Below, piece after piece: positions 41,488 to 54,917 of a DNA stretch of 64,000 nt (its first letter is position 1; each line of letters begins with the position of its first letter). Location: IMG/VR virus record IMGVR_UViG_3300028829_004911; one strand, given 5' to 3'. The position numbers and the translations under genes are program-made. The notes under the pieces were generated by a model. That model worked only from the letters and a program-made list of their open reading frames with translations, made no database searches and was not told where the DNA came from. Source of the DNA: a virus.

Positions 41488-41524
41488 ATAATGGAGAGGC
41501 TATTTCGAAAGTATTCAAAACCAC

Positions 41525-41553
41525 TTGACGATGTAGGGCGAATCACTTAGGTT
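41525..41553 (+). promoter_or_regulatory. Sigma70-like promoter, TTGACG-N8-GCGAATCAC variant
   Basis: TTGACG, 17 nt, TAGGTT. Same layout as 10920. Confidence 0.55.
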
Positions 41554-41581
41554 CAGCTACAACAACAAATAGGAGGACCTA

Positions 41582-42571
41582 ATGTCACATATCAAATTTC
41601 CAAGCATCGAGAGCTACGCACACGTATACCGCAGCCAACAACGTTTCGACGTACCTTCATCGGTAAAGTATGGCGCGAAGATCAAACTCCACGGCACCAA
41701 TGCCGCCGTACGTATTTCAGCGAAGGGGGACGTGGTAGCGCAGGGACGCAACCGCGATATATTCGTAGGAGAAGATCAATTTGGTTTTGCAGGTTTCGTG
41801 GACAAGAACGACAGCGACTGGCGCGTAGCTGCCACTAAATTCCTGACGGCACTGAGCCTACAACGCGATGACGTAGTGGTTCACGGAGAATGGGCAGGTC
41901 CGGGCATCCAGAAAAAAGATGCAGTCTCTACGTTGGCAAAGAAATACTTCTTCATTTTTGCGGTACAAGTTGGGGACGCCATGTACACAGATCCTGACGT
42001 GATCGAAGCAGCCGTGCCTGATCTTGACAACCTTTTAGTTCTGCCATGGTTCATCGAAGTTCCTAATATGATGAATTTCGCGGATGCCAGTTTGTGTGAC
42101 TATTTTGCCAGTTGGGCAAATCGTCAGGCAAATATCATCGGTGAACGAGATCCTTTCATAGAAGAAATTTTCGGCGTAGAAGGTCCTGGGGAAGGTCTGG
42201 TGTTCGTTCCAATGGCGCAGGGCATCGACCGAAACGTGTACAGTGCGCTAACGTTCAAAGCCAAGTGCGAAGGACACGGTGCTAAAGCGGGTCCAGCGGT
42301 CGTTCGTGATTTGGTCATTCCAAAAGGTGTAGAAGACTTTGTGAAGACGTTTGTTACCGAAGCACGCTGTGAACAGGCTGTTTCCGAAGGGTGTGGCGGG
42401 ATTGCAACACTGGAAAAGACTGGCGACTTTCTCAAGTGGATTGGACAAGACGTGGCGAAAGAAAGTGGCGAAGAACTCTCTGAAATGGATCTCGAATGGA
42501 AACAGGTGCAAAAGTACGTCATCACCGCAGCGAAACTGTGGTTCCGCGCCAAAGCGACGGCAATCGTATGA
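41582..42571 (+). CDS. RNA ligase, Rnl2-like
   Basis: Motif I KLHGTN. HGEWAGPGIQK resembles T4 Rnl2 FGEFAGPGIQK. 329 aa. Confidence 0.8.
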   Translation: MSHIKFPSIESYAHVYRSQQRFDVPSSVKYGAKIKLHGTNAAVRISAKGDVVAQGRNRDIFVGEDQFGFAGFVDKNDSDWRVAATKFLTALSLQRDDVVVHGEWAGPGIQKKDAVSTLAKKYFFIFAVQVGDAMYTDPDVIEAAVPDLDNLLVLPWFIEVPNMMNFADASLCDYFASWANRQANIIGERDPFIEEIFGVEGPGEGLVFVPMAQGIDRNVYSALTFKAKCEGHGAKAGPAVVRDLVIPKGVEDFVKTFVTEARCEQAVSEGCGGIATLEKTGDFLKWIGQDVAKESGEELSEMDLEWKQVQKYVITAAKLWFRAKATAIV

Positions 42572-42762
42572 TGGATATAACTGCGCAAACAAAACTTATT
42601 GGCGAGAAGACGGCGGAGCTGAACGATCTTATTTATCAACTTCCGCGAACCTGTAAAGTCGAGGTCGTTGTAACAGAACGCCTGGCAGTGCAAAGCCAAT
42701 TCCCCCCACCACACGTATCGGTAACTGTATTTCAGTGGCTAGGAGGAAATAGAAGTGGGTGA
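42568..42762 (+). CDS. Hypothetical protein
   Basis: ATGA-coupled ATG within track ORF 42496..42762. Confidence 0.6.
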   Translation: MMDITAQTKLIGEKTAELNDLIYQLPRTCKVEVVVTERLAVQSQFPPPHVSVTVFQWLGGNRSG

Positions 42763-43102
42763 ACCTATCATACCGTACACGTGGGACCATTTCGATGATG
42801 GGCACCGCCCTCCCACTGCGTTCGAATTGGCCGTGGATATTTGTGATGAATTCCACGAAGCCGAGTTAATATCGGTGCATCACAAAATTTGTTCAATGAA
42901 TCATTCTCAACAAGAATCCGTAACAATATACATGCACATTGGCGCGCACACTAATCCAGGCGAGATAAACGGAGAGTCGTATGATTTTATTGGCATGCAA
43001 GGCCCTGCCAAGGTGATGTTTCGAACCGTATCCATATCAAACTATTCATCAAATATGTATAGTCAAGCCGCAACACTTGAAGGACAAGTATATTATGACT
43101 GA
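42755..43102 (+). CDS. Hypothetical protein
   Basis: GTG start behind AGGAGGA. Confidence 0.7.
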   Translation: MGEPIIPYTWDHFDDGHRPPTAFELAVDICDEFHEAELISVHHKICSMNHSQQESVTIYMHIGAHTNPGEINGESYDFIGMQGPAKVMFRTVSISNYSSNMYSQAATLEGQVYYD

Positions 43103-43577
43103 CATTCTAAAAGACGCAATTTTATCTGAGGATGGCGTGTACCGCTACAATCTAATCCGTGAATGGGATTCGATGGATCCGGTGATGCTATTCATCATGC
43201 TGAACCCATCGACCGCTGACGCGGTTGACGATGACCCTACAATACGTCGCTGTACTAGTTTCGCCCAACGAGAGAACTGCGGCATGATCGAAGTTGTAAA
43301 CCTATTTGCCTTCCGCGCCACTGACCCAAAAGAGTTGAAGACGGCGGAAGAACCAATCGGTGCGGACAATGATGAAATCATTGTGATGGCAGCAGAAGAG
43401 GCTGATATCATCGTATGTGCTTGGGGAACTAACGGCGCATTGTACGAACGAAATGAAAAAGTTATTTCTTTGTTGCAATCGGTGGAGAAACCTATTATGT
43501 GTCTTGGTAAGACAAAGGACGGACACCCGAAACACCCGTTGTATCTTCCCGCTAACGCGGAGTTAATTGAATTATAG
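43095..43577 (+). CDS. DUF1643-like protein
   Basis: YRY.L.R.W....+MFIMLNPSTAD...DDPTIRRC..FA ... NLFA.RATDP ... AWG ... HPLYL pattern. Confidence 0.7.
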   Translation: MTDILKDAILSEDGVYRYNLIREWDSMDPVMLFIMLNPSTADAVDDDPTIRRCTSFAQRENCGMIEVVNLFAFRATDPKELKTAEEPIGADNDEIIVMAAEEADIIVCAWGTNGALYERNEKVISLLQSVEKPIMCLGKTKDGHPKHPLYLPANAELIEL

Positions 43578-43586
43578 GAGGAATTT

Positions 43587-43877
43587 ATGGTGGATTTAAA
43601 TTGGAATGAAGAAGGAGACGCCGTAATTCCATGCATTGGGTGCGCTTACTCTGTGGGACAGAATCATGTGACCCATCCAATCAGGCCGACTTCTGGATAC
43701 AGTTTTGGATTCTTTACCTCGCTGGAACAATACGATGAATTTGACACAAGATTGCTCGCACAAGAATCGAAATATTTTCCGGTTAATTTTGTGACAGGAT
43801 TCGACACCGAAACGCATGCAACCGCTGCAGCAGAAAAACACTTTCAAAACCTACTATCCACAATAAAAGGAGACTAA
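43587..43877 (+). CDS. Hypothetical protein
   Basis: Track ORF, RBS AGGAGGA. Confidence 0.75.
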   Translation: MVDLNWNEEGDAVIPCIGCAYSVGQNHVTHPIRPTSGYSFGFFTSLEQYDEFDTRLLAQESKYFPVNFVTGFDTETHATAAAEKHFQNLLSTIKGD

Positions 43878-43878
43878 C

Positions 43879-44181
43879 ATGCACAAGACACCTGCACTCT
43901 GGTACATGGATAGCGATGTATTGATGGGCTTTTATTGCTCAGACGTGATTGTCGCAGCCACCGACCGCGATGACGCAATTCAGCAAGCCCTACACGCGTA
44001 TGATTTATGGGTGAAAGAAGGCCTTGACGAATATGGTTTTCATTGCCTCATCAGTGATTGCTATCCCACCGACGAATATTTCATACAGCAATCAAAAGAT
44101 AAACGCGTCGAATTTCATGAAGAGGTGAAAACTCGCTTGAAGCAACAAACACGGCGCTGTCTTATCAAGACTGTGTCATAA
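43879..44181 (+). CDS. Hypothetical protein
   Basis: Track ORF, RBS AAAGGAG. Confidence 0.75.
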   Translation: MHKTPALWYMDSDVLMGFYCSDVIVAATDRDDAIQQALHAYDLWVKEGLDEYGFHCLISDCYPTDEYFIQQSKDKRVEFHEEVKTRLKQQTRRCLIKTVS

Positions 44182-44215
44182 ACAGGTGACAGAATTTTCG
44201 ACGGAAAAGTTACTC

Positions 44216-44243
44216 TTGACTACGAAACCCAAGATGATAGTAT
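44216..44243 (+). promoter_or_regulatory. Candidate sigma70-like promoter
   Basis: TTGACT, 16 nt, TAGTAT. A CGAATCA box follows at 44254-44260. Confidence 0.5.
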
Positions 44244-44278
44244 AGGTTATTATCGAATCATATCATAAGGAGACCAAC

Positions 44279-44500
44279 ATGAATACCAACACTCCCACAC
44301 GCCAAGTACTCCGCGCCGAGAATCGCCGAGCAGAAAAATATCGCAGACGACACGAAAACGAGGTTGTTAAGGGAAAAAATATTTCACGAATGAAATCTCC
44401 CCTACCACTCAATCGTGCGGGGCGTCGTAAATTCACGTCTAACACGTGTCCACAGGATTTCCGCTTGGCGGTTATCCAACACATGGCTGGAACTGCGTGA
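44279..44500 (+). CDS. Hypothetical highly basic protein
   Basis: Track ORF, RBS AAGGAGA. Confidence 0.7.
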   Translation: MNTNTPTRQVLRAENRRAEKYRRRHENEVVKGKNISRMKSPLPLNRAGRRKFTSNTCPQDFRLAVIQHMAGTA

Positions 44501-44970
44501 TGCGTCGCTGGGTATCTTTAATTGCCCTGATTACATGTTCATCTGCATATGCAGATGGGCATGGCATCTACCTAGAACATGGAGACGGAAGCAGAACTGC
44601 ACCTTGCTGTGGACAGAGTACAGAGCCTTTCAAAGGCACTGAAAACAGGCCGTTTACATCTCCAGCCGTCTCCAGAGCAGCCGTACATACTCCTATGCTG
44701 ATAGCTGTTGAAAGTCCTGCCGAAGGTGAGTTTCACTTTGCTGACGTGACTATCCACAACCGATTGGTGTTCGCGGATACGACACACACTCGGTACGACT
44801 TTCAGATAAAAGGTGAAGTTGTTATTGTTGTGCCAGAACCGCGTAGCGGTAATGACCCTGACACGTTTACGGTGATTCCTCCTGATGGTTATATCGCGGT
44901 TCCTGACAGAGTCACGCTTGAGGAAGGTGAAAACGCTGTTATTAAAATCTTTTCCAATCTACTAGGATAA
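44500..44970 (+). CDS. Secreted protein (signal peptide)
   Basis: Coupled ATG at 44500 within track ORF 44446..44970. MRRWVSLIALITCSSAYA signal. Confidence 0.7.
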   Translation: MRRWVSLIALITCSSAYADGHGIYLEHGDGSRTAPCCGQSTEPFKGTENRPFTSPAVSRAAVHTPMLIAVESPAEGEFHFADVTIHNRLVFADTTHTRYDFQIKGEVVIVVPEPRSGNDPDTFTVIPPDGYIAVPDRVTLEEGENAVIKIFSNLLG

Positions 44971-45008
44971 ACTCAAGTTTCTCTAATCCGTTAAGGTGTT
45001 TCGATTTC

Positions 45009-46802
45009 ATGACCCAATTTGACCGTATTGATGGTAAGTTTGTAACCACACGTAAATACGAGAAAGATCGTTTTGCACTGAAACGTGCTAAGTGGAAGTA
45101 CGACTTCCGTCGAAAGCATTGGTGGACTGCTGATGAAGAAAAAGCTCTACTTGTAAAGGATTGGGCGATTGGTGCAGCTAAAGAGTACCTTGACAACGCC
45201 CTAGCGATCCGTCAGGCGGCGATTGACGCATCTTGGGCAGAAGACACCGTGGCAGAATTCCCTGCCCCTGAGGGGCTTGCTTACATGCCCTTCCAACGCG
45301 CTGGGATAGAGTACGCCTCCAAGCGCTCCAGAACTCTGATAGCCGACCCTCCGGGGCTGGGTAAAACGATTCAGGCTATCGGATTACACAACACCAAGAA
45401 ATTGAATAAAATCCTTATCATCTGCCCTGCGTCATTGAAACGCAATTGGAAGCGTGAGTGGGAGCGCTGGGACGTTCACGGGTTATCTGTGGGACAAACT
45501 GCGTCAATATTGCACAATGATCCGGTGTTCATGCCTAACGGAGGCCGAGCGCGGGATCACCGCGATAAGCCTATATCAAAATCGCGTACGGAACACTTCT
45601 GGCCTGCCGCTGATGTGTGTATCGTCAACTACGACATGCTTGAAGCGTTCGATGATCAGATCAAAAAAGTCGAATGGGACCTTGTTATCTGCGACGAAGC
45701 CCACCTGTTAAAAACGGCAACGTCACTACGATCCATGTGTGTTTTTGGCGGAGAGCGTAAGGCAAGTCGAAAGAAAGGAATATCGAAAAAAGTATTCACG
45801 CCTATCGAGGCTGCACACCACCTGTACCTAACTGGGACGCCAATTCTTTCAAAACCATCAGAACTTTGGACGATTATTAGAGCGTGCGACCCTGAGGGAC
45901 TAGGGCTGAACTGGAGAAAATACGCACTAACGTACTGTGACGCACAGGAATCGTTCGGGGGCCTTGATTCGTCCGGCGCGTCAAATCTTGAAGAACTTAA
46001 CCGTCTCCTGCGTGAGCGTTTCATGGTACGTCGCGATAAGCAATCGGTGCTGAAAGAGCTGCCCGACAAAAACCGCGAAATGGTTCTACTTCCAAAAGAC
46101 AAACTGGAAGCACCTGTCAAGAAAGAGCAAAACCGCGTCGAGAACGCGTTGGAAGCCTACGAGAAATCAGTACTGGGAATCGATACTTCAAATCTGTTCC
46201 GATACATCGACAACCTTTGTGACAAATTGGCAGCAGCTTTGGCAGAACAATCAGGAGAAGAACCTGATTGGGGCGAGGCGGTAAAAACGCTCTCCGCACC
46301 AGAACAAATCATGTTCACCGAAATCAGCTCGGCACGTGAAGAAGTGGCACTAGCCAAGGTCGGATTGGTGGTAGAGCACGTCGAGAAACTGGTCCAGTGC
46401 GGCGAGCCTGTAATTTGTTTTGGATACCACAAGTCGGTAATCAAATCGATCAAAGAGCGCCTTGAAAAGAAAGGAATTCGCGTCGGTGTGATTACCGGAG
46501 ACGTCCATCCAGACAAGCGCCAGGACATCGTGGACGATTTCCAAGACGGGCATCTCGATGTGATACTTGGAAACATCATTGCTATGGGTGTTGGTTTTAC
46601 ATTGACGCGCGCGCGCTTTGTTGTATTTGCGGAACTAGATTGGGTTCCTGCGATGATTGAGCAAGCCGAAGATCGTGCATGGCGACACGGACAATTAAAT
46701 GCTGTACTTGTACAGCACCTTGTGGTAGACGGGTCCATTGAAAGCCGAATGGCGATAGCCTTGTTAGAAAAAATGGGCGTAATTAAAGAGGCACTGGATT
46801 GA
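45009..46802 (+). CDS. SNF2-family helicase / ATPase
   Basis: PPGLGKT, DEAH box (ICDEAHLLK), LTGTP and QAEDRAWR motifs. Confidence 0.9.
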   Translation: MTQFDRIDGKFVTTRKYEKDRFALKRAKWKYDFRRKHWWTADEEKALLVKDWAIGAAKEYLDNALAIRQAAIDASWAEDTVAEFPAPEGLAYMPFQRAGIEYASKRSRTLIADPPGLGKTIQAIGLHNTKKLNKILIICPASLKRNWKREWERWDVHGLSVGQTASILHNDPVFMPNGGRARDHRDKPISKSRTEHFWPAADVCIVNYDMLEAFDDQIKKVEWDLVICDEAHLLKTATSLRSMCVFGGERKASRKKGISKKVFTPIEAAHHLYLTGTPILSKPSELWTIIRACDPEGLGLNWRKYALTYCDAQESFGGLDSSGASNLEELNRLLRERFMVRRDKQSVLKELPDKNREMVLLPKDKLEAPVKKEQNRVENALEAYEKSVLGIDTSNLFRYIDNLCDKLAAALAEQSGEEPDWGEAVKTLSAPEQIMFTEISSAREEVALAKVGLVVEHVEKLVQCGEPVICFGYHKSVIKSIKERLEKKGIRVGVITGDVHPDKRQDIVDDFQDGHLDVILGNIIAMGVGFTLTRARFVVFAELDWVPAMIEQAEDRAWRHGQLNAVLVQHLVVDGSIESRMAIALLEKMGVIKEALD

Positions 46803-46839
46803 CACTTCGCAGATTGCGGGGATATTTTAAATTTAAGTA

Positions 46840-46867
46840 TTGACACCAACAAGTTTTATGATAAAAG
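46840..46867 (+). promoter_or_regulatory. Candidate promoter with an extended -10
   Basis: TTGACA, then TG-A-TAAAAG. Confidence 0.45.
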
Positions 46868-46890
46868 AACCAAACCAATGAGGACAACGA

Positions 46891-47472
46891 ATGACACACC
46901 CGTATATCACAACCGCGACCGGACGTAAGTTTCACTTCGGTCCTCACGATCCATCTGAATTTTATCTACCGGATATTGCACGAGCGCTAAGCCGTATCTG
47001 CCGATTCACAGGACATCTCTCAGACAGATACGAAGACGACATATACTCAGTTGCGCAACATAGCGTGTACGTTGAGCGTCTTTTGGTACAGCGAGGAGCA
47101 CCAGAGTATGTACGCAAGTGGGCTTTGACCCACGACGCCCCTGAATACGCATGGGGCGATGTAAACTCTCCCCTCAAATCACTTTTACCAGACTACCGCC
47201 GTTTCGAAAACGGAAGTGCTCAAGCATTCCGCACACGTTACGGCGTTCCATATGACGATGGCATTGAAGCCTACGTCAAGTGGGCAGACATTCAACTGCT
47301 TTATGCGGAAGCCGAAGAGCTTACGACAACCTCGCCGTGGGAGTGGGACCAGTTCCCCGGCCGCGCCGAGCAGACACTTTACGAAATCGACTCGGACTTT
47401 TATCCGTGGCGACCAAAGAAAGCGCGTGACGAATACCTCGCCGCGTGCGATGCACTCGGAATCAAGGAGTAA
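46891..47472 (+). CDS. HD-domain phosphohydrolase (YfbR-like 5'-deoxynucleotidase)
   Basis: SVAQHS..V and LTHDAPEYAWGDVNSPLK resemble YfbR. Confidence 0.7.
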   Translation: MTHPYITTATGRKFHFGPHDPSEFYLPDIARALSRICRFTGHLSDRYEDDIYSVAQHSVYVERLLVQRGAPEYVRKWALTHDAPEYAWGDVNSPLKSLLPDYRRFENGSAQAFRTRYGVPYDDGIEAYVKWADIQLLYAEAEELTTTSPWEWDQFPGRAEQTLYEIDSDFYPWRPKKARDEYLAACDALGIKE

Positions 47473-47475
47473 ACA

Positions 47476-48018
47476 ATGCCAACACATATGAACCTGCGCT
47501 GGACCGAAATGGAAGACGCACTCGAAGCCACTGACAAGCTGAAACACCTCGCCAAGTCGTACGGCATCGCGGACCCATTCTCGGACAACGGCGTAAAAGT
47601 CCTGCAAATCGCGATAGCAACTGGTCTAGATATCCACCCAGGACGTCGCGGTCCAGACGCCATGGATCGCATTGGAAACGAATACGAAATTAAAACGGTC
47701 GATTTGAACAAAAAGAACTCAGGATTCTCAACAAATCATCACCTGAATACCGCAGTTATCGACCGATTTATGGCACGCCGTTTCGTGTTTGCTACATATA
47801 AAGATAGTACCCTTGTCGAAGCCTACTTGGTTGAATCGGCTGCACTTATGCCTGTGTTCGCCAAGTGGCGACGCTCTTTAAAAGGGCGTACACACTTGAA
47901 TAATCCTAAAATTCCAATCGACTACGTGCGTGAAGTCGGTACAGCGATGTATCTGAAAGACGTGACACCGTCATGGGCTTCCAAGGAAACCACTACTGAG
48001 GATGTAGCGGCGGCGTAA
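47476..48018 (+). CDS. PvuII-family type II restriction endonuclease homolog
   Basis: Collinear with remembered R.PvuII: DNG.K.LQ..GL...PGR.G.DA.D..G.EYE.K, GFST.HH.N, NNPKIP..YV.E.GT..Y. Catalytic D/E/K kept. Confidence 0.85.
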   Translation: MPTHMNLRWTEMEDALEATDKLKHLAKSYGIADPFSDNGVKVLQIAIATGLDIHPGRRGPDAMDRIGNEYEIKTVDLNKKNSGFSTNHHLNTAVIDRFMARRFVFATYKDSTLVEAYLVESAALMPVFAKWRRSLKGRTHLNNPKIPIDYVREVGTAMYLKDVTPSWASKETTTEDVAAA

Positions 48019-48142
48019 ATAATTAATGTGTCTATCGACACGCTGCCAATACGCGTGACTCTGTTTGTTATCAGCCCCCGACCTGTTACGGCAGAGTCAC
48101 GTTATTAACTCAACAACTAATCGAAATGTGGACATTAAAACA

Positions 48143-50398
48143 ATGACTTACTCATTCAATCCAATCCAGATCGTGACGGGCGAATTCGAAGAAGTAATAT
48201 TCGATATCGAGACCAACGGGCTTTTACCCGAACACGTCGAACCACCGTTCTGCATGGATCGAATTCACTGCCTTGTGATCAAAGATATTCACACTGAAAA
48301 GACGATAGAATTTGTTAACAACGATGAAGGAAATAACCTCGAAGAAGGTGTAAAAATCCTGATGGATGCGAAGACAATCATCGGACACAACATCATCGAC
48401 TTTGATATCCCCGCGATTGCACTTATATATCCATATTTCGTTCCCGAAGCCCGTATTGTTGACACACTGGTCATGGTTCGCATGTGTTTTGCAGATCAAA
48501 AGGAAAAAGATTTTCGATTAGCGTCAACAGGTAAACTGGCTGGGCGACTAATTGGTACACAGGGCCTTGAAGGCTGGGGCCAACGTCTTGGGATGCATAA
48601 AGGCGACTATAAGAAAGACCGTGAAAACGAACTAAAGGATATTCACAAAGAAAAAGGACTAGATGCACCGACTACAGAGGAGTTACACCACTACGTCTGG
48701 GGCACGTGGAGTCAGAATATGCACGACTACTGTATCAACGATGTTGACGTTAACATGTTGGTGTGGACAAGTATTCTACGCTGCAATTGGTCCCGCGAAG
48801 CTACCATTATGGAGCACCAAATACATGATCTAATGGTAAAGCAAGAGCGTAATGGGTTTGTGTTTGACAAAAATAAAGCGGACAAACTGGCTCAAGATTT
48901 TCAGACGCAATACGATGCACTCGCAGAGGAAGCTACGGCGGATATCGGAAAATGGCATCGACCGTTAAAAGCCCACACGGACGAATTTGTAACAGAACAT
49001 GGAGAACACCACGCCCGCCGCACATGGGGAAACGTTGATACCTACAAGCGCAACATAGACAGAAGTAAATCTCGTGCAAAGGCTGCGGCTGGTGGAGACT
49101 TTCGTAAGATGATGCCAGATGTTTATGCGGATGTTCCTCTAGTGAAAATTGAATTGAAAGAATTCAACCCCAATTCACGTCCTCAAATTACAGATCGTTT
49201 AAAAACGTTGTATGGGTGGGAACCGCAAGACTTCACGGAAAAAGGTGCAGCCAAAGTTAATGATGAAATCCTACGAGATCTTGCTGATGATGTTCCTTTG
49301 GCTGCAACATTGGCGGAATTATTCTTTTACAAAAAACGACTAGGACAAGTATCTGACGGTAAAAATGGATGGCTGAAATTACTCCGCAGTGACGGACGAA
49401 TCCACGGACGTGTAAATGTAGGTGGAACCGTATCAGGACGTGCTACACACTCTTCCCCAAACATCTCACAGGTGCCGGGGGTAAATGCGGTGGAATTTGG
49501 AGCTAACGAAGACAAAGGAATAACTCCTGAAATGGCGAAAGAAAAAGGAGAGGAGTTTCTTTCTAAAAACGCTGGGAACGTAAATAGCTGGAGTGCGCCT
49601 ATCATCGTATCATCAAAGTGGAAAGAGAATAAATCTGAGTGGTCTATCGTGGCACGCGGACGCGCGGGGGATTACGGATACGATTGCCGCGAATTGTTTA
49701 CCGTACCTAAAGGCTATAAGCTGGTAGGATGCGATCTCTCGGGAATCGAATTTCGTTGCCTAGGGAATCTTACGTTCCCGTTTGATGGTGGAGAAATCGT
49801 GGACGTAGTACTCAACGGAGATATTCACGCTCGAAACGCCCAGTTGGCGGGAATTACACGATCAGTGGCTAAGCGCCTCCTGTACGCCGCCATGTATGGC
49901 GGAGGGGACGGAAAGCTTGGTTCTATTGTTGAGCCATTCTCATCCGCAGCCCGTCAGCAGTCTTTAGGTAAGACACTTCGATCAAAGCTCATGGCGGCGA
50001 TGCCTTCACTACAGAAGGCGATCCGTGAAATTCACAAAGAGATGCGAAAGAACTCTAACACCATTCGCGGACTGGACGGACGTCGATTATATGCACGCTC
50101 AAAGCATTCTGCGTTGAATCTTCGCCTGCAATCTGACGGTGCGCTAATTGCGAAGAAATGGTGTCTACTTGTTGACGATATGTTCTATGAAGAAGGGTGG
50201 GATCACGGCCCCAATTTAGAATATTTCTTCTGCTCGTGGTCTCACGACGAAATTCAGATCGCAGTACGCGAAGACTTGGCAGAACGCGCCGCTGAAATAA
50301 TGGAAGCTGCGGCACCTCTTGCAGGGGAGCATTTTAATTTCAACTGCCCTGTAACCGCCGAATCCGCTATTGGTATGACGTGGGCCGCTACTCACTAA
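48143..50398 (+). CDS. Family A DNA polymerase with a 3'-5' exonuclease domain
   Basis: Exo I FDIETNGL, motif B R..AKRLLYAAMYGG, motif C SWSHDEIQI. Start uncertain (weak RBS). Confidence 0.9.
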   Translation: MTYSFNPIQIVTGEFEEVIFDIETNGLLPEHVEPPFCMDRIHCLVIKDIHTEKTIEFVNNDEGNNLEEGVKILMDAKTIIGHNIIDFDIPAIALIYPYFVPEARIVDTLVMVRMCFADQKEKDFRLASTGKLAGRLIGTQGLEGWGQRLGMHKGDYKKDRENELKDIHKEKGLDAPTTEELHHYVWGTWSQNMHDYCINDVDVNMLVWTSILRCNWSREATIMEHQIHDLMVKQERNGFVFDKNKADKLAQDFQTQYDALAEEATADIGKWHRPLKAHTDEFVTEHGEHHARRTWGNVDTYKRNIDRSKSRAKAAAGGDFRKMMPDVYADVPLVKIELKEFNPNSRPQITDRLKTLYGWEPQDFTEKGAAKVNDEILRDLADDVPLAATLAELFFYKKRLGQVSDGKNGWLKLLRSDGRIHGRVNVGGTVSGRATHSSPNISQVPGVNAVEFGANEDKGITPEMAKEKGEEFLSKNAGNVNSWSAPIIVSSKWKENKSEWSIVARGRAGDYGYDCRELFTVPKGYKLVGCDLSGIEFRCLGNLTFPFDGGEIVDVVLNGDIHARNAQLAGITRSVAKRLLYAAMYGGGDGKLGSIVEPFSSAARQQSLGKTLRSKLMAAMPSLQKAIREIHKEMRKNSNTIRGLDGRRLYARSKHSALNLRLQSDGALIAKKWCLLVDDMFYEEGWDHGPNLEYFFCSWSHDEIQIAVREDLAERAAEIMEAAAPLAGEHFNFNCPVTAESAIGMTWAATH

Positions 50399-50408
50399 AT
50401 TTTTCTTG

Positions 50409-50437
50409 TTGACATACGAGATATATAACTATACAAA
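50409..50437 (+). promoter_or_regulatory. Candidate sigma70-like promoter
   Basis: TTGACA, 17 nt, TACAAA. Confidence 0.45.
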
Positions 50438-50446
50438 GGCAAAGCA

Positions 50447-51058
50447 ATGAACAAAAACGTACTCTTTTTCGATACTGAAACCACTGGATTAAAGTTGGAT
50501 AAGTTCGAAGATATTCACCCGAGACAGCCTATGGCTGTACAAATAGGTATGAAGCTGGACGGGATGAACCGTAACGAGCGTGGTGCCTTTAATTACTGTA
50601 TCCGTACAAACGGAGATTGGATTGTAAACCCAAAAGCTGCCGAAATTACCGGAATTGACAACGATATCGCCGACGAGTATGGATGTGACCTGATAACAGG
50701 TGTTGAAATGTTTCTTGATATGATGGAAAACGCTGACACAATTGTGGCACATAACATCGCTTTTGACGTCACGGTGATGCGCCGTATGTGTAAAGTGTAC
50801 AGCGAGCGCACAGATCAAAAATACACCGACCCGTTTATTGGAAAAACCTTAGCGTGTACAATGGTGAACTCAACGAACATCGTTAAGGCCCTGCCTATGC
50901 GCTACGGTAAATATAAGTGGCCTAAGCTGGAAGAATGTATGATGCACTTTTTCGGCGAAGAACTAGACGGTGCCCACGACGCCTTGGTTGACGTTAAAGG
51001 GACTGCAAAAGTATTCTACCATCTACTGGATTTAGGAGTGTTCAATGGAACCGAATAA
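50447..51058 (+). CDS. DEDD (DnaQ-like) 3'-5' exonuclease
   Basis: FFDTETTGL, AHNIAFDV and GAHDALVD motifs. Confidence 0.85.
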   Translation: MNKNVLFFDTETTGLKLDKFEDIHPRQPMAVQIGMKLDGMNRNERGAFNYCIRTNGDWIVNPKAAEITGIDNDIADEYGCDLITGVEMFLDMMENADTIVAHNIAFDVTVMRRMCKVYSERTDQKYTDPFIGKTLACTMVNSTNIVKALPMRYGKYKWPKLEECMMHFFGEELDGAHDALVDVKGTAKVFYHLLDLGVFNGTE

Positions 51059-51314
51059 TAACTACAATAACCCGACATCTACTCAAGATACAGGGTCTAA
51101 TGAAAATCCTCTTTACAACGAACGTATTTCAGTGTATATGAGTGATATCACTCGCGGAGGGGAACGCTTGGTACAGAAAGTCTCCAACGACATCAATGAA
51201 ATAAGCATTAGACGTGCAATGCAGATCGGATACATGATGGCGTGTCAGGACCACAATTTGAAGGTACCACAAATGGATGATCCAGCAAAATCAATGGGGT
51301 ATGGTAACGTATAA
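51045..51314 (+). CDS. Hypothetical protein
   Basis: Track ORF. Confidence 0.65.
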   Translation: MEPNNNYNNPTSTQDTGSNENPLYNERISVYMSDITRGGERLVQKVSNDINEISIRRAMQIGYMMACQDHNLKVPQMDDPAKSMGYGNV

Positions 51315-52474
51315 TGAGCTATTACGAAGAACTCATGGCGACAGGTGTCCCTAAGGACATCCCTGCGGGCGGGTTCACGTTTGAGGATTGTTTTGACGAA
51401 TTCGTCGCCAGCCACCAGAAGACGTGGAAATATGACCGTAATGAAATGGTAGGTGCCTCCGAATGTTTTGGGTGCATCCGTAAGACTTGGTTCGGGAAGC
51501 ACGGAAAGAAATTTGGACACGAAGTAGATAAAGACCACGAAGAGAACTGGGGCGCGATGCGTCGTGGGGATATAATGGAGAACTATCTTATCGTCCCCGC
51601 AATCCGCCAAGGTTTGAACCGTCGTGGACTTGATTTGATTATGGAAGGAGACGATCAAGAGACAATTCGTGATGGATGTAATTCTGCAACACTGGACGGA
51701 TTAATCGTTCCCATTGATCCAGAAATGGGTGGTAAACTACCCAAAGATTTTTTAGAATACTACGGTTTCGAAGGAGATTTAGACGCCGACAGTGTTGTTT
51801 TAGAGATGAAGTCTTTTGACCCTAGAATTGAAATCAAACAAGCTAAAGCCATTCACCACGGACAGACGCAGATGCAGATGGGACTTGTGCGCGACACTAC
51901 GGAGTACAAACCCGAATACGCTATTGTCATATACGTGAATGCCTCTTGGTATGATGACATTCGCCCGTTTTTAGTACCGTTCTCGGAGAGCGAATACCAA
52001 ATCGGACGCGAGCGTAATAAAAAGGTTTTCGAAGTGGAAGATCCTGCGCTGTTTGCTCCAGAAGGAAAATTAGACGGGGATTGTAAGTACTGTAAGTTTA
52101 AAGACGCATGCAGCATCGTATCAACTGGACGTGTTCCTGAAAAACGTGACCCTCTGAAAGCTGGAGAGATTGACGGACAGGATCCAGATATGATATCACG
52201 CATGGACATTCTTGTCGCTAATCAAGCTAAATTGAAAGCATTGGAAAAGCAGACCGAGAGAGATGTCAAGGAAGCTAACGAGGCTATTCGACAAGAAATG
52301 ATAAACGCTGGAACAAGTCGAGCGGTGGGTGAGAATTGGAAAGTCTTTTACAGTGCACAAGCTGGCGCAAAACGACTATCTACGGCACTCATGGAAGAGG
52401 CTGGACTAGATCCAGAAGACTACAAAGAACAAGGGAATGGTTTTGAAAAATTAACCGTAACCGTATCGAAATAG
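51314..52474 (+). CDS. PD-(D/E)XK Cas4/RecB-like nuclease with a Cys cluster
   Basis: N-terminal ECFGC, VLEMKS, C-terminal CKYCKFKDAC (CxxCx5C). Confidence 0.75.
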   Translation: MSYYEELMATGVPKDIPAGGFTFEDCFDEFVASHQKTWKYDRNEMVGASECFGCIRKTWFGKHGKKFGHEVDKDHEENWGAMRRGDIMENYLIVPAIRQGLNRRGLDLIMEGDDQETIRDGCNSATLDGLIVPIDPEMGGKLPKDFLEYYGFEGDLDADSVVLEMKSFDPRIEIKQAKAIHHGQTQMQMGLVRDTTEYKPEYAIVIYVNASWYDDIRPFLVPFSESEYQIGRERNKKVFEVEDPALFAPEGKLDGDCKYCKFKDACSIVSTGRVPEKRDPLKAGEIDGQDPDMISRMDILVANQAKLKALEKQTERDVKEANEAIRQEMINAGTSRAVGENWKVFYSAQAGAKRLSTALMEEAGLDPEDYKEQGNGFEKLTVTVSK

Positions 52475-52494
52475 CGCCGCGCTAGCGGTACTAT

Positions 52495-52522
52495 ATGTAA
52501 AACGAACCCGTGCGTTTTACAT
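52495..52522 (+). other. Perfect 10-bp hairpin ATGTAAAACG-N8-CGTTTTACAT
   Basis: Read directly. No T-tract follows. Confidence 0.8.
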
Positions 52523-52574
52523 TTAATGAAAACGGGTATGAATGTAAAAATAAAATCGAAGAAGGAAAGAAAAT

Positions 52575-53375
52575 ATGAACGCACTTGTTGAAGCGCAAAA
52601 CGCAGGCCTAGCGGTCGCAGGCGCAAACCCATTTGCTCAAGCTGGTGCTGGGGCAAGCGGAACAACATATGTCAAGTTTAAAGGTGTAACTGGACAATTT
52701 GTGGCGGGACAAGACGAAACAGAGTTGGACCACGGAACGCAGTTCGCTGCTGATGTAGAAAATTCTCTATGGTCTTGGTCATTCTGGTGGGATGGGGAAG
52801 TTCTCGAAACTGTTGACGTAATGTTGACAGCGGATCCAAACGGATGGAAAAACGGTCCTAACCGTCTCCCAGACGATCCAGAAGAGAAGGTTGACATGTC
52901 TCTTGACGAAATTCGTGCAAAGCAGAATGACCGCAGCAATAACTTCATGGATGGTTGGACCTGTCAAGCCGTTCTGGGCATGCGCCCTGTTGACGGAGAT
53001 GAAGAAGAGTACACTATCAAGCTAAACCAAGGCGTAGCCTTAAACGGTTTCCGCACACTAGTGGCTCAATTCGGCAAGTCCTACAAAATTAAAGCAGGCC
53101 TTACACCGATCATCGAAATTGATGCGAACAAGTACAAGGCAAAGGCTAAAAACGTGGGATGGCGCTATGCTCCCCAACTGAAAATTGTTGACTGGGCTTC
53201 GGAAGAAGAACTGCTGGCTATGGTTGGAGAAGATGGCGGCGATTACGATCAAGAGCCAGAAACTAACGAGGAGTCTGTACAAATCGAAGACCAATCCGAA
53301 GGGGCTGACGATTCAACTCCTACCGAAGATGAAGCTCCGAAGCGACGCGGTCGCCGTGGTGCCAAAAACTTCTAA
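52575..53375 (+). CDS. Hypothetical protein with an acidic C-terminal region (ssDNA-binding role is only a positional guess)
   Basis: Track ORF, RBS GAAGGAAAG. Lies between a nuclease and a helicase. Confidence 0.8.
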   Translation: MNALVEAQNAGLAVAGANPFAQAGAGASGTTYVKFKGVTGQFVAGQDETELDHGTQFAADVENSLWSWSFWWDGEVLETVDVMLTADPNGWKNGPNRLPDDPEEKVDMSLDEIRAKQNDRSNNFMDGWTCQAVLGMRPVDGDEEEYTIKLNQGVALNGFRTLVAQFGKSYKIKAGLTPIIEIDANKYKAKAKNVGWRYAPQLKIVDWASEEELLAMVGEDGGDYDQEPETNEESVQIEDQSEGADDSTPTEDEAPKRRGRRGAKNF

Positions 53376-53383
53376 ATGAAAAA

Positions 53384-53413
53384 GGTCAAGGACATCCGAT
53401 TTTGTCCTTGACC
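53384..53413 (+). other. Perfect 11-bp hairpin GGTCAAGGACA-N8-TGTCCTTGACC
   Basis: Read directly. An A-run precedes it, no T-run follows. Confidence 0.8.
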
Positions 53414-53477
53414 ATCTACCCCCCTGCATGTAGAAAGGCTTTAATAAAATGAATCCATCTGAACAACGGAATTATAC

Positions 53478-54917
53478 ATGTCTATCACATTAACAGACGA
53501 ACAATTTAGCGGTGTCAAAGAAGGTGCACTGTGGTATGAAAATTGCGAGAACTCCATTGATCAATATGGATTTGAAGTTGAGACAAAAACATGGAACGAA
53601 GAGCGTGAATCGTATGATTACGCCTCCAGAAATGTAGCTCCCTCTAGCATTCAGCCTTTCGTGTTTACAGGATTTGCGGGTAGTGGTAAATCCACTTGTG
53701 TTGGATCCATGATCGAACATATAGGATTAACACCAGATGAAGTAATGTTCATGGCTCCGACAGGCAAGGCGGCGAAAGTGCTGTCCAGAAAACTAAAGGA
53801 GAGTGGTTGGCCGTCTGGTGCAACAACTATTCACAAAGCCATCTACATGCCTAAATCTGCACGTGCCGATGCCCTTGAAATACAGATAAAAGGGATTGAG
53901 AACCACGTATTATTTTTACGTACAAACGGAGACGCAGGCGCAAAACACCCCGATCATTCCATTGCTTCCATGGATGTAAAGACCGCAGAATCTAAAATTG
54001 CTGGTCTTATCATAGAGTTAGGAGACGCAATGAACAATGAGGGTCCGAAATTTAACCTAAAATCAGCGTCAGAGCTTCCTCCCGAAGTTAAGCTGATCGT
54101 TATCGATGAGGCTTCCATGGTGGGCACCGAAATCGTTGCGGATCTTGAATCTTTTGGTATTCCAATTATGGCCATCGGTGATCCGGGGCAGCTCCCTCCT
54201 GTAGGAGACTCTTGGGGCTTCGATATGGAAATGCCGAATGTGTTTTTAAAAGAAATACATCGCCAAGCTGCAGACAACCCCATAATTCGTTTAGCCACGA
54301 TGGCCCGAGAGGGGCGCAATATTCCTATCGCTGATTATGGTGACGATGTACGCGTGGTCGCCCGCCGAAATGATGACGTCACGTTCAACATGAAACGCGA
54401 TGCAATGGTTCTTGTTGGTACTAATAAAAAGCGTTGGGATGTCACAGCCAAAATCCGTACGGAGTGTGGGTGGGAAGAAACTGGACCAATGAAAGATGAG
54501 CCTTTACTGGTATGCCGCAATTCGAGACAGTACCCAGGACTGGTGAACGGAACGCTCCTTCGTTGTACAGAAGACATTGGAAATCTCAACAACGCGAGCG
54601 CCCGAATCAACTTGAAAGCCATTGATGAAGACGTTGGCGGGATGGAATATGATATATGGGCTACCCAAGGCCTATTCGAAGAACATGCATTCCGTAACAA
54701 GGGGTCACATTCTGCCCCCGACCGTGAAGCATTTCGTGCCAATAAAGAGTGTGAACATGTTGACTGGGGCCACGCTATCACGGTCCACAAATCACAGGGT
54801 TCAGAGTTTGAAGATGTGGCGCTGCACGACGAAAGTCCCGTGTTCCGCCAAGACGCGCAACGCTGGTTGTATACGGGGATAACCCGCGCCAGCCACAAAT
54901 TAACGGTGATCGTATAA
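53478..54917 (+). CDS. SF1 helicase, Dda/RecD-like
   Basis: GFAGSGKST, VIDEASMV, IHRQ and TVHKSQGSEF motifs. Confidence 0.9.
   Translation: MSITLTDEQFSGVKEGALWYENCENSIDQYGFEVETKTWNEERESYDYASRNVAPSSIQPFVFTGFAGSGKSTCVGSMIEHIGLTPDEVMFMAPTGKAAKVLSRKLKESGWPSGATTIHKAIYMPKSARADALEIQIKGIENHVLFLRTNGDAGAKHPDHSIASMDVKTAESKIAGLIIELGDAMNNEGPKFNLKSASELPPEVKLIVIDEASMVGTEIVADLESFGIPIMAIGDPGQLPPVGDSWGFDMEMPNVFLKEIHRQAADNPIIRLATMAREGRNIPIADYGDDVRVVARRNDDVTFNMKRDAMVLVGTNKKRWDVTAKIRTECGWEETGPMKDEPLLVCRNSRQYPGLVNGTLLRCTEDIGNLNNASARINLKAIDEDVGGMEYDIWATQGLFEEHAFRNKGSHSAPDREAFRANKECEHVDWGHAITVHKSQGSEFEDVALHDESPVFRQDAQRWLYTGITRASHKLTVIV

What the first reader, a model, noticed from the sequence alone, without database searches (positions are those of the whole stretch)
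47476..48018. Orphan PvuII-like restriction endonuclease in a window that appears to contain no CAGCTG
The 180-aa product is collinear with R.PvuII as I remember it. It keeps the catalytic D...E-x-K (PDAMDRIGNEYEIK) and the recognition histidines (GFSTNHH). No DNA methyltransferase is recognisable in the 64 kb.

I read the whole window for the palindrome CAGCTG and found none. One-off neighbours are common: dozens of AAGCTG (for example 1086-1091), plus GAGCTG, TAGCTG, CAGCTT, CAGCTC and CAGCTA. I logged roughly 150 or more AGCT cores by eye, an approximate hand tally. With that many, around ten or more CAGCTG sites would be expected by chance.

This suggests self-protection by site avoidance, with the nuclease used against host or competitor DNA rather than as part of an R-M pair.
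Basis: partly seen in the sequence, partly recalled or inferred. Interest (0 to 1): 0.8.

Follow-up and report, generated by a model that had tools for sequence, protein, structure and literature searches.

The report
Methylase-less PvuII-type nuclease in phage
A family of large marine phages keeps a PvuII-type DNA-cutting enzyme without its usual protective methylase and is safe because its genome has no CAGCTG sites, but that absence is part of a general avoidance of restriction sites shared with related and unrelated phages that lack the enzyme, so it did not evolve to protect against the enzyme.

Summary
ORF 47476-48018 encodes a genuine PvuII-family endonuclease: Pfam 116 bits, model-to-PvuII TM 0.9, and catalytic D/E/K plus base-contacting residues intact. 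The 64-kb window has 0 CAGCTG against 10-16 expected, and no DNA methyltransferase.

The gene is truly solitary: 0 of 16 phage-clade loci have the M.PvuII-type methylase that flanks 85 of 93 cellular or distant viral homologues. It is conserved and under purifying selection (dN/dS 0.07-0.09). Its clade has 0 CAGCTG in 470 kb.

CAGCTG avoidance is neither specific nor tied to the gene. Eight 6-bp palindromes are absent from the window. Ruegeria phage RpAliso lost the gene and still has 0 sites in 140 kb. Five outgroup phages and an unrelated N4-like phage of the same host, all without the gene, have 0-1 sites. Host DNA carries the site at chance frequency.

Best reading: generic anti-restriction site avoidance made the genome immune, which let it keep a methylase-less restriction enzyme. 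The gene is translationally coupled to a T5 Dmp-type dNMP phosphatase. It sits where relatives carry a T5 A1-like gene. I infer that it cuts host DNA. Activity and specificity are untested.

The parts
47476..48018 (+). Solitary PvuII-family type IIP restriction endonuclease gene (180 aa). PvuII core is residues ~9-160, followed by a clade-specific C-terminal tail of about 20 aa.
   Evidence: ORF. PF09225 at 116 bits. PDB phmmer about 1e-30. AF2 model pLDDT 89.5, TM 0.89-0.91 to R.PvuII. D61/E71/K73, D37, T86, H88, H89 and N142-N143-P-K145 are conserved in all clade members. dN/dS 0.07-0.09.
47464..47469 (+). Shine-Dalgarno AAGGAG, 6 nt upstream of the ATG, lying inside the last codons of the upstream HD gene (stop TAA at 47470-47472). 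This suggests translational coupling.
   Evidence: Read directly from the sequence.
46891..47472 (+). HD-type deoxyribonucleoside 5'-monophosphate phosphatase (T5 Dmp-type), the first gene of the two-gene unit.
   Evidence: phrog_318 at E=3.4e-51. No Pfam hit. Annotated 'HD superfamily hydrolase' in DSS3P8, RcXuper and RpAliso. Directly upstream of the nuclease in 14 of 14 clade loci with flanks.
46799..46828 (+). Promoter-like element (TTGACA-16-GATATT) in the SNF2-HD intergenic region.
   Evidence: Consensus scan, 10 of 12 matches. This is a consensus match only, not shown to function.
45009..46802 (+). SNF2-family helicase, the upstream neighbour (context).
   Evidence: PF00176, PF00271 and PF04851. 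Syntenic in all relatives.
48143..50398 (+). T7-like family A DNA polymerase, the downstream neighbour (context). The ORF listing start at 48065 (TTG) is probably too early.
   Evidence: The Logan gene call gives 751 aa with PF00476. 62-66% identity to clade polA.
50447..51058 (+). RNase T/DEDDh 3'-5' exonuclease. It is a possible downstream processor of cut DNA (inferred only).
   Evidence: PF00929 at E=1.2e-11.
51314..52474 (+). RecE-like exonuclease. It is a possible downstream processor of cut DNA (inferred only).
   Evidence: phrog_434 at E=1.4e-24.
1..64000 (.). Whole window free of CAGCTG and of seven other 6-bp palindromes. This is the genomic condition that makes the solitary nuclease harmless to its own genome.

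Best explanation
The ORF encodes an active, solitary (methylase-less) PvuII-type restriction endonuclease. It is a vertically inherited core gene of the DSS3P8-like group of ~147-kb marine siphophages.

The phage genome contains no CAGCTG, so the enzyme cannot cut it. Host DNA carries the site about every 4 kb.

The absence of the site was not created for the enzyme. It is one item in an extreme, lineage-wide and host-range-wide avoidance of restriction palindromes, most likely imposed by host restriction-modification systems. That pre-existing immunity allowed an R gene to be captured and kept without its M and C partners.

The nuclease is translationally coupled to a T5 Dmp-type dNMP phosphatase. 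It lies in the pre-polA slot where related CbK-like phages carry methylases and a T5 A1-like gene, which in T5 is the host-DNA-degrading nuclease.

The inferred job is to make double-strand breaks in the host chromosome. Exonucleases would then process the ends to dNMPs, and the phosphatase would dispose of them, while the phage makes its own dNTPs with its RNR, ThyX and dUTPase.

Shown: family membership, fold, conserved active and recognition sites, solitary status, purifying selection, site absence in the phage, site presence in the host, the generality of avoidance, and the gene context. Inferred: CAGCTG specificity, activity in vivo, and host DNA as the substrate.
For: Family and fold.

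Catalytic and base-contact residues are invariant in 16 clade loci and 81 environmental clade proteins. H83N also occurs in methylase-linked cellular homologues.

Solitary status: 0 of 16 clade loci against 85 of 93 others have a PF01555 methylase within 3 kb. No methylase is in the window. None is annotated in the 252 features of DSS3_MAL1.

Functional constraint and vertical descent: dN/dS 0.07-0.09, identity pattern congruent with polA and SNF2, synteny in 14 of 14 loci, and 84 environmental clusters.

Self-immunity: 0 CAGCTG in 470,483 bp of clade DNA, including the complete DSS3_MAL1 genome, where about 44 are expected.

Host substrate: 12 sites in 50 kb of the R. pomeroyi DSS-3 megaplasmid against 14.7 expected.

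Avoidance independent of the gene: RpAliso 0 in 140 kb, outgroups 0-1 per 42 kb, N4-like DSS3phi2 0 in 50 kb, and each genome lacks 8-23 palindromes.

Context: upstream gene is phrog_318 dNMP phosphatase, and the outgroup slot holds phrog_1745, the T5 A1 family. T5 A1 is necessary and sufficient for host DNA degradation and Dmp enhances virulence (preprint 10.64898/2026.04.02.716235).

Precedent for immunity by site absence: PacI (PMC3488263).
Against: - No biochemical or infection data exist for any clade member. The two phage papers never mention the gene.
- Specificity is inferred from conserved contacts. His83 is Asn in the whole clade, and the proteins carry an extra C-terminal tail.
- RpAliso is viable on R. 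pomeroyi without the gene, and shows no A1-like gene in the 140 kb examined, so the function is dispensable.
- T5 A1 is a pre-early gene, whereas this gene lies in the replication module and its timing is unknown.
- A small metallophosphatase elsewhere in the clade (window 17466-18206) could be the real host-DNA nuclease.
- A host methylated at CAGCTG would be immune.
- Only 64 kb of the ~140-kb genome of this particular phage was available.
Confidence: 0.55

Rival explanations
1. One reading: the phage purged CAGCTG from its genome as an adaptation to its own nuclease, so site avoidance evolved for self-protection.
For: 0 CAGCTG in all 470 kb of nuclease-bearing clade DNA. In the window, avoidance of several other palindromes has relaxed (GGATCC 9, AGATCT 10, ATCGAT 20) while CAGCTG stays at 0. 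An active enzyme would make any new site lethal, so it probably does reinforce the avoidance today.
Against: RpAliso lost the gene, is about 28% diverged in DNA from all gene-bearing relatives, and still has 0 sites in 140 kb. Five outgroups and an unrelated N4-like phage of the same host lack the gene and have 0-1 sites. CAGCTG is one of 8-23 palindromes avoided in each genome, and no matching nucleases are known for the others.
Confidence: 0.1
2. A weapon against competitors: the nuclease cuts co-infecting phages, plasmids or resident prophages (superinfection exclusion or counter-defence), not the host chromosome.
For: It is sequence-specific, solitary and its own genome is immune. Phage nucleases used as counter-defence are typically sequence-specific (citing refs 35-37 of the T5 preprint).
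Against: Every co-circulating phage tested is itself free of CAGCTG, so these at least would be immune: DSS3phi2 and RpAliso on the same host, and the CbK-like relatives. Coupling to a dNMP phosphatase fits bulk DNA breakdown better.
Confidence: 0.15
3. Changed function or specificity: the protein keeps the PvuII fold but recognises another sequence or structure, nicks, or serves phage replication or recombination in the helicase-polymerase module.
For: It is located between the SNF2 helicase and polA. Clade-wide substitutions include H83N and D138H, and E66 is variable. There is a conserved extra C-terminal segment (LKDVxPxW).
Against: All residues that contact bases or metal in PvuII are invariant (D34, T82, H84, H85, N140, N141, K143, D58, E68, K70), and H83N occurs in ordinary methylase-linked homologues. 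The model superposes on PvuII at 1.6-2.0 A. A CAGCTG-specific enzyme has no substrate in its own genome, so a role on phage DNA would require a new specificity.
Confidence: 0.12
4. A split restriction-modification system: the cognate methylase is encoded elsewhere in the genome, for example the ~210-aa gamma-type methylase-like gene in the tRNA region of relatives.
For: RPALISO_15, MAL1_00026 and their homologues have motif I (EPCAGDG) and motif IV (NPPW) and match phrog_799 'DNA methyltransferase' at 2e-31. The gene is present in all five gene-bearing GenBank phages. Separated R-M systems exist (PMC3488263).
Against: The same methylase is in RpAliso, which has no nuclease, and in 33 other alphaproteobacterial phages with no PvuII homologue. 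It is unrelated to the beta-class PF01555 methylase that accompanies 85 of 93 other homologues. With zero CAGCTG sites there is nothing for it to protect.
Confidence: 0.04
5. A selfish or decaying passenger: a homing-endonuclease-like mobile gene, or an inert remnant of a captured R-M system.
For: It is precisely absent from one clade member, where the HD stop overlaps the polA start. Variable small ORFs lie between the nuclease and polA in MAL1 and MD18.
Against: dN/dS is 0.07-0.09. It holds the same position in 15 of 15 clade loci, including the window. Its divergence parallels polA and SNF2. No frameshifted copies were seen. The gene-less genome has no CAGCTG, so it could not be a homing target.
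Confidence: 0.04

Closest known systems
R.PvuII of Proteus vulgaris (type IIP, CAG|CTG; PF09225; PDB 1pvi, 1pvu)
   Same: Same family and fold: 116 bits, about 39-45% identity, TM 0.9. Same small size. Same catalytic D58/E68/K70 and same base-contact residues D34, T82, H84, H85, N140, N141 and K143.
   Different: There is no adjacent M.PvuII-type N4-cytosine methylase and no C (controller) gene. The gene is phage-borne, sits in a replication and nucleotide-metabolism operon, and is coupled to a dNMP phosphatase. His83 is Asn. It has an extra ~20-aa C-terminal tail. Cleavage is untested.
R.PacI, a solitary restriction enzyme tolerated because the producer's genome has no PacI sites (cited in Ershova et al. 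2012, PMC3488263)
   Same: The principle is the same: a restriction enzyme without a methylase, with self-immunity through complete absence of the recognition site in the carrier genome.
   Different: PacI is a cellular HNH enzyme with an 8-bp AT-only site, which is rare by composition in a GC-rich genome. Here the enzyme is a 6-bp cutter in a phage, where 10-16 sites per 64 kb (about 44-86 per genome in DSS3_MAL1) are expected and have been removed by selection. That selection acts on many sites and also on relatives without the enzyme.
Phage T5 pre-early pair A1 (host-DNA nuclease) plus Dmp (dNMP phosphatase)
   Same: A nuclease gene is paired with a Dmp-type phosphatase (phrog_318). Relatives carry a true A1-family gene (phrog_1745) in the same slot. 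The phage has its own de novo dNTP synthesis genes.
   Different: The nuclease is not homologous to A1, which is a metallophosphatase, whereas this is a PD-(D/E)XK enzyme. It would be site-specific. Self versus non-self discrimination would be explained here by site absence, whereas it is unresolved for T5. Expression timing and host-DNA degradation have not been shown for this clade.
Chlorovirus-encoded restriction-modification nucleases that degrade host DNA (from my own knowledge of the field; the review PMC7019647 is in the library but I did not read it for this point)
   Same: A virus-encoded type II-like site-specific endonuclease is proposed to attack host DNA early in infection.
   Different: Chloroviruses protect their own DNA with cognate methyltransferases. 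This clade has no cognate methylase and instead has no sites.
Solitary REases in phage genomes (Oliveira et al. 2014, PMC4176335: 12 solitary REases against 143 solitary MTases in 831 phages)
   Same: It belongs to this rare and unexplained category.
   Different: Here the category gains a concrete, conserved example with a site-free genome, a natural loss variant and a functional context.

Membership tests
PvuII restriction endonuclease family (PF09225) | Significant full-length match to the family profile, above the curated cut-off | tested here: met
   116.3 bits against a cut-off of 25, profile positions 5-155 of 155. E of about 1e-30 to R.PvuII chains.
PvuII restriction endonuclease family (PF09225) | PvuII three-dimensional fold | tested here: met
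   AF2 model pLDDT 89.5. Foldseek top 12 hits are all R.PvuII, with TM 0.86-0.91 (monomeric entries, target-normalised) and rmsd 1.6-2.6 A.
PvuII restriction endonuclease family (PF09225) | PD-(D/E)XK catalytic residues (PvuII D58, E68, K70) | tested here: met
   D61, E71 and K73 are present in the window protein and in all 16 clade loci.
PvuII restriction endonuclease family (PF09225) | Base-contact residues for CAGCTG (D34, S81/T82, H83-H85, N140, N141, K143) | tested here: inconclusive
   All are conserved except H83, which is N in the whole clade. H83N also occurs in 6 of 80 cellular and 4 of 13 distant viral methylase-linked homologues. The list of contact residues comes from my recall of the PvuII-DNA structures; only D34 is supported by a tool output (PDB 3pvi title). 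Some of these positions lie inside the search patterns used to collect the loci.
PvuII restriction endonuclease family (PF09225) | Homodimer that cleaves CAG|CTG to blunt ends with Mg2+ | not testable with these tools
   Requires expression and an in vitro assay.
Type II restriction-modification system (PvuII R-M: R + M + C genes) | Cognate methyltransferase gene closely linked to the R gene | tested here: not met
   0 of 16 clade loci have it within 3 kb. It is present in 73 of 80 cellular and 12 of 13 distant viral loci, median gap 260 bp, and is PF01555. The flanking genes here are the HD phosphatase and polA.
Type II restriction-modification system (PvuII R-M: R + M + C genes) | Cognate methyltransferase anywhere in the genome | tested here: inconclusive
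   None is in the 64-kb window. The rest of this genome is unavailable. Relatives have a small gamma-type methylase-like gene that does not co-vary with the nuclease.
Type II restriction-modification system (PvuII R-M: R + M + C genes) | Controller (C) protein gene upstream of R | tested here: not met
   The upstream ORF is a 193-aa HD phosphatase whose stop lies 3 nt before the ATG. No small HTH ORF is present.
Solitary REase immune by absence of its site (PacI-type) | Carrier genome lacks the recognition sequence | tested here: met
   0 in the 64-kb window. 0 in the complete 149.6-kb DSS3_MAL1 genome. 0 in 470 kb of clade DNA. The remaining ~76 kb of this phage's own genome was not seen.
Solitary REase immune by absence of its site (PacI-type) | Enzyme is active | not testable with these tools
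   Support is indirect only: intact active site and dN/dS of 0.07-0.09.
Phage host-DNA degradation module (T5 A1/Dmp type) | Nuclease gene associated with a dNMP 5'-phosphatase | tested here: met
   The upstream gene is phrog_318 at 3.4e-51. It is translationally coupled. The pairing is conserved in 14 of 14 loci.
Phage host-DNA degradation module (T5 A1/Dmp type) | Nuclease homologous to T5 A1 | tested here: not met
   The nuclease belongs to the PvuII family. A1-family homologues (phrog_1745) are found in phiCbK, Bajun, RXM and Lacusarx but in none of the clade DNA examined. It may work like that module but is not a member of the A1 family.
Phage host-DNA degradation module (T5 A1/Dmp type) | Host chromosome is degraded during infection in a nuclease-dependent way | not testable with these tools
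   No published data for this clade.
Homing endonuclease / mobile nuclease gene | Sporadic distribution incongruent with the host-genome phylogeny, and a target site in gene-less alleles | tested here: not met
   The position is the same in all clade loci and divergence parallels polA and SNF2. The gene-less RpAliso has no CAGCTG.

The most novel reading that the evidence does not exclude
A widespread group of marine phages has replaced the T5 A1-type host-DNA nuclease of its CbK-like relatives with a captured, methylase-less type II restriction enzyme. It uses the enzyme, together with a Dmp-type phosphatase, to demolish the host chromosome. Self and non-self are told apart purely by sequence: the phage genome was already purged of CAGCTG by anti-restriction selection. 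This would be the first phage case of PacI-style immunity by site absence. It would show an anti-defence trait (restriction-site avoidance) being exapted to license an offensive weapon. It would also give a simple answer, in one lineage, to a question still open for T5: how a host-DNA-degrading phage spares its own unmodified DNA.
Probability: 0.4. Interest if true: 0.65.

Novelty: new variant of a known kind. Interest (0 to 1): 0.5.

Why it matters
Solitary restriction enzymes in phages have been counted but never explained. Restriction-site avoidance has been seen only as a defensive adaptation.

If the model is right, avoidance also allows a phage to carry a restriction enzyme with no methylase and turn it on the host. 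That would be a very simple way for a virus to tell its own DNA from the host's. How phage T5 spares its own DNA while degrading the host's is still unknown, so this question is open.

The system is experimentally tractable. Cultured phage-host pairs exist: DSS3P8 and RpAliso on R. pomeroyi DSS-3, MD18 on P. inhibens, and RcXuper on R. capsulatus. RpAliso is a natural knockout.

Practically, the clade may also be a source of PvuII isoschizomers that can be expressed without a methylase only in site-free backgrounds.

It is also a caution for genome scans. The absence of one palindrome should be judged against all palindromes and against relatives before it is linked to a nearby gene.

Tried and rejected
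- Megablast of 8 kb around the gene against GenBank phages found nothing. The window is a novel phage at the DNA level. tblastn was needed to find relatives.
- My first methylase-motif regex was too strict: it found only 5 of 80 methylases even next to cellular homologues. I replaced it with a looser motif plus homology clustering and a Pfam check.
- Pfam gives no hit for the HD protein, the small methylase-like protein or the A1-like protein. PHROGs was needed. A PDB sequence search with the small methylase found nothing.
- The literature search for PvuII contact residues (His84, Asn140 and so on) returned no papers. The contact list therefore rests on my recall plus PDB titles.
- The DSS3P8 and MD18 papers contain no mention of restriction, endonuclease or methylation.
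- One paper search failed because a term was too short.
- I considered and rejected a cognate split R-M system, homing or selfish behaviour, and base hypermodification as the protection. No modification genes were found in the window, although modification cannot be excluded from sequence alone.
- I did not obtain the remainder of this phage's ~140-kb contig, because the tools return at most 10 kb of flank.
Full report
**1. The observation**

The ORF at 47476-48018 (+) is real and encodes 180 aa. It matches Pfam PF09225 (Endonuc-PvuII) over the whole profile at 116 bits against a cut-off of 25. It matches R.PvuII chains in the PDB at about 1e-30. An AlphaFold2 model built on 81 clade sequences is confident (pLDDT 89.5). 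It superposes on R.PvuII at TM 0.89-0.91 and rmsd 1.6-2.0 A for the best entries.

The window has no CAGCTG. The expectation is 11.25 +/- 3.4 from dinucleotide shuffles and 10.4-16.3 from Markov models of order 0-4. From the window's own protein sequences and codon usage, about 11.9 sites are expected inside genes. None of 34 Gln-Leu dipeptides is written CAG-CTG.

No DNA methyltransferase is detectable in the window. Pfam finds none on 39 ORFs of at least 150 aa, and motif scans find none.

**2.

CAGCTG is one of eight 6-bp palindromes wholly absent from the window. The others are CCCGGG, CCGCGG, CGATCG, GAGCTC, GCCGGC, GGCGCC and GGGCCC. CTCGAG, ACCGGT and CGGCCG occur once each. CCWGG is about five-fold depleted, and CTGAAG/CTTCAG is absent. 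The genome shows general restriction-site avoidance.

**3. Whose genome this is**

The window has no close DNA relative in GenBank phages. The exact protein lies on metagenomic contigs of up to 139,686 bp.

Protein searches place the window in the DSS3P8-like group of ~147-kb siphophages of Rhodobacterales. Members are Roseobacter phage DSS3P8, Ruegeria phage vB_RpoS-V10, DSS3_MAL1, Phaeobacter phage MD18 and Rhodobacter phage RcXuper. The nuclease is 55-60% identical (58-61% by tblastn) and polA 62-66% identical. [quoted passage not shown]

The order SNF2 helicase, HD hydrolase, PvuII-like, polA is conserved in all GenBank members and in the 14 of 14 clade loci whose flanks are available. At least 84 protein clusters of this clade type exist in metagenomes. 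In NJ trees of polA and SNF2 the window phage is the earliest branch of the clade.

**4. Is the enzyme functional and solitary?**

All 16 clade loci keep the catalytic D58/E68/K70 equivalents. They also keep D34, T82, H84, H85, N140, N141 and K143 (PvuII numbering). H83 is Asn in the whole clade, but it is also Asn in some methylase-linked cellular homologues. The closest pairs give dN/dS of 0.07 and 0.09. The gene is therefore under strong purifying selection, and its divergence parallels polA and SNF2.

Of 80 cellular and 13 distant viral homologues (32-47% identity), 73 and 12 respectively have a homologous ~335-aa methylase within 3 kb, at a median gap of 260 bp. The methylase belongs to PF01555, the M.PvuII family. 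None of the 16 clade loci has one. No methylase is annotated in the complete DSS3_MAL1 genome.

Relatives do carry a ~210-aa gamma-type methylase-like gene in the tRNA region, with motifs EPCAGDG and NPPW and a match to phrog_799. It is also present in the nuclease-less RpAliso and in 33 other alphaproteobacterial phages without any PvuII homologue. It is not a cognate partner, and with no sites in the genome there would be nothing for it to protect.

**5. Is the site absence linked to the nuclease?**

The whole clade lacks the site. DSS3_MAL1 has 0 in 149.6 kb against about 44 expected. The 40-kb stretches of MD18, RcXuper and DSS3P8 have 0. Eleven IMG/VR clade contigs have 0 in 135 kb. In total there are 0 sites in 470,483 bp.

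The controls contradict a causal link.

- Ruegeria phage RpAliso is nested within the clade as sister to RcXuper. It has cleanly lost the gene, so that the HD stop overlaps the polA start. It differs by about 28% in DNA from every gene-bearing relative. It still has 0 CAGCTG in about 140 kb, where about 41 are expected.
- Outgroups that lack the gene are equally depleted. phiCbK has 0, Mesorhizobium phage Cp1R7A-A1 0, Brevundimonas phage Bajun 0, Citromicrobium phage RXM 1 and Sphingobium phage Lacusarx 1, each per 42 kb with expectations of 3-26.
- The unrelated N4-like podovirus DSS3phi2 infects the same strain as DSS3P8 and RpAliso. It has 0 in 50 kb against 12-27 expected.

Each of these genomes lacks 8-23 different palindromes. 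In all, phages without the gene have 2 sites in 400,896 bp.

The host does not avoid the site: 50 kb of the R. pomeroyi DSS-3 megaplasmid has 12, with 14.7 expected. Cellular loci that carry PvuII-type R-M systems also contain the site.

The avoidance is thus a general property of virulent phages of these alphaproteobacteria. Selection by host restriction systems explains it most simply. It is both older and wider than the nuclease gene.

**6. How it most likely works**

A CAGCTG-specific enzyme has no substrate in its own genome, yet the gene is strongly conserved. The selected function must therefore involve other DNA.

The context points to the host chromosome. The gene's Shine-Dalgarno sequence (AAGGAG, 47464-47469) lies inside the end of the upstream gene, whose stop is 3 nt before the ATG. 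That upstream gene is a deoxyribonucleoside 5'-monophosphate phosphatase of the T5 Dmp type (phrog_318, 3e-51).

In RXM, Lacusarx, phiCbK and Bajun, the same pre-polA slot carries DNA methylases and a protein of the T5 A1 family (phrog_1745, 5e-167). No A1 homologue was found in any DNA examined from the DSS3P8-like clade, including the complete DSS3_MAL1 genome.

In T5, A1 is necessary and sufficient for host chromosome degradation. Dmp dephosphorylates the released dNMPs and enhances virulence. How T5 DNA escapes A1 is unknown (preprint 10.64898/2026.04.02.716235).

The window also encodes exonucleases (RNase T-like and RecE-like), a RecD-like helicase, a class II RNR, ThyX and dUTPase. This is the equipment for finishing degradation and for making dNTPs de novo.

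I therefore propose that the clade uses a captured restriction enzyme as its host-DNA nuclease. Self-immunity would be a by-product of pre-existing site avoidance. Once the enzyme is present it would make any new CAGCTG lethal, and so it would reinforce the avoidance.

This functional part is inference. RpAliso shows that the gene is dispensable. Expression timing is unknown. A small metallophosphatase elsewhere in the clade is an alternative nuclease candidate.

**7. Comparison with what is known**

The protein is a member of the PvuII family. The locus is not a PvuII R-M system, because the defining linked methylase and controller gene were tested for and are absent.

Immunity by absence of sites is known for the cellular solitary enzyme PacI (PMC3488263). 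Solitary REases in phages have been counted (12 in 831 genomes) but not explained (PMC4176335). Virus-encoded restriction enzymes that attack host DNA are known in chloroviruses, where the virus uses cognate methylases; this point is from my own knowledge.

PHROGs lists the phage family as 'unknown function' (phrog_28628). The two papers on these phages do not mention the gene or the site avoidance, although three GenBank records label it a restriction enzyme.

**8. Verdict**

The claim that avoidance is an adaptation to the nuclease is refuted.

It is a new variant of known kinds: the PvuII family, solitary REases immune by site absence, and phage host-DNA degradation modules. The conserved solitary enzyme, its Dmp-type partner, the replacement of A1 in the same slot and the natural knockout together make a testable hypothesis.

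Noticed in passing
window, whole; e.g. GGCGCC, CGATCG, CCGCGG (0 each; 12-20 expected): Apart from CAGCTG, seven 6-bp palindromes are absent and three occur once. CCWGG is about five-fold depleted (18 against ~89 expected). The asymmetric CTGAAG/CTTCAG is absent on both strands (6-21 expected). GGATCC, AGATCT and ATCGAT are fully avoided by most of the GC-rich relatives but occur at near-normal frequency here, which suggests a different host restriction landscape for this 47% GC phage.
   Followed up: partly
window 46891-47472 vs L118:16964-19934, L009:15740-19993, L117:15290-19980: The slot between the SNF2 helicase and polA is a variable 'DNA warfare' cassette across the wider lineage. The DSS3P8-like clade has an HD phosphatase plus the PvuII-like nuclease. 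RXM has HD, a methylase and a T5 A1-like gene. phiCbK and Bajun have two methylases plus an A1-like gene. Mesorhizobium phage Cp1R7A-A1 has HD plus a methylase.
   Followed up: partly
L011:9230-9862 (RpAliso), L002:12212-12838 (DSS3_MAL1); not in the window: A ~210-aa gamma-type amino-methyltransferase-like protein (EPCAGDG ... NPPW). It has no Pfam hit but matches phrog_799. It sits among the tRNA genes, is conserved in all six GenBank clade members, and occurs in 33 other phages, nearly all of alphaproteobacteria (one infects Microcystis). Its target sequence is unknown.
   Followed up: partly
window 47953-48015 (residues ~160-180 of the nuclease): Phage-clade proteins carry a C-terminal extension beyond the end of R.PvuII with a conserved LKDV-x-P-x-W motif. 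It is predicted with low confidence (pLDDT 55-75). It could be a protein-interaction tail.
   Followed up: no
window 31646-32770 and 33113-34510: A bifunctional NMN adenylyltransferase/Nudix gene (NadM type) and a nicotinamide phosphoribosyltransferase form an NAD+ salvage pair conserved in all relatives. From my own knowledge, this resembles phage NAD+ reconstitution pathways that counter NAD-depleting defence systems.
   Followed up: no
window 18773-19972, 24501-25280, 28068-28628, 29302-30588, 30585-31082, 41582-42571: A dense RNA and tRNA repair set: CCA-adding enzyme, a class II aminoacyl-tRNA-synthetase-like core fragment (259 aa), PNKP phosphatase, T4 Rnl1-type ligase, a P-loop kinase and an Rnl2-type ligase. 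This suggests countermeasures against anticodon nucleases. No tRNA genes lie in this window, although relatives carry about 30.
   Followed up: no
window 59807-61915: The ribonucleotide reductase here gives only a weak, sub-threshold match to the insertion domain of B12-dependent class II RNRs (E about 1e-4, 23 bits against a cut-off of 27). The GC-rich relatives are annotated with class Ia NrdA/NrdB. This may be a swap of RNR class within the clade.
   Followed up: no
window 35745-39443: A 1232-aa ORF with no Pfam hit. ORFs of similar size lie at a similar position in relatives (MAL1_00146, RPALISO_130, about 3.9 kb), but homology was not tested. Function unknown.
   Followed up: no
window 43077-43577: A strong full-length DUF1643 protein (E=6e-48; phrog_3230, unknown function), two genes upstream of the SNF2 helicase.
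   Followed up: no
window 17466-18206: A 246-aa calcineurin-like metallophosphatase (PF00149), annotated also in DSS3_MAL1 and RpAliso. T5 A1 is a predicted metallophosphatase, so this small protein is an alternative candidate nuclease. BLAST shows no homology to the A1-like protein of RXM.
   Followed up: partly
window 48065-48142: The mechanical ORF start of polA (TTG at 48065) is probably wrong. An independent gene call and alignments to relatives support ATG at 48143 (751 aa). That leaves a 124-nt spacer after the nuclease gene, containing a small hairpin (GTGTCTATCGACAC).
   Followed up: partly
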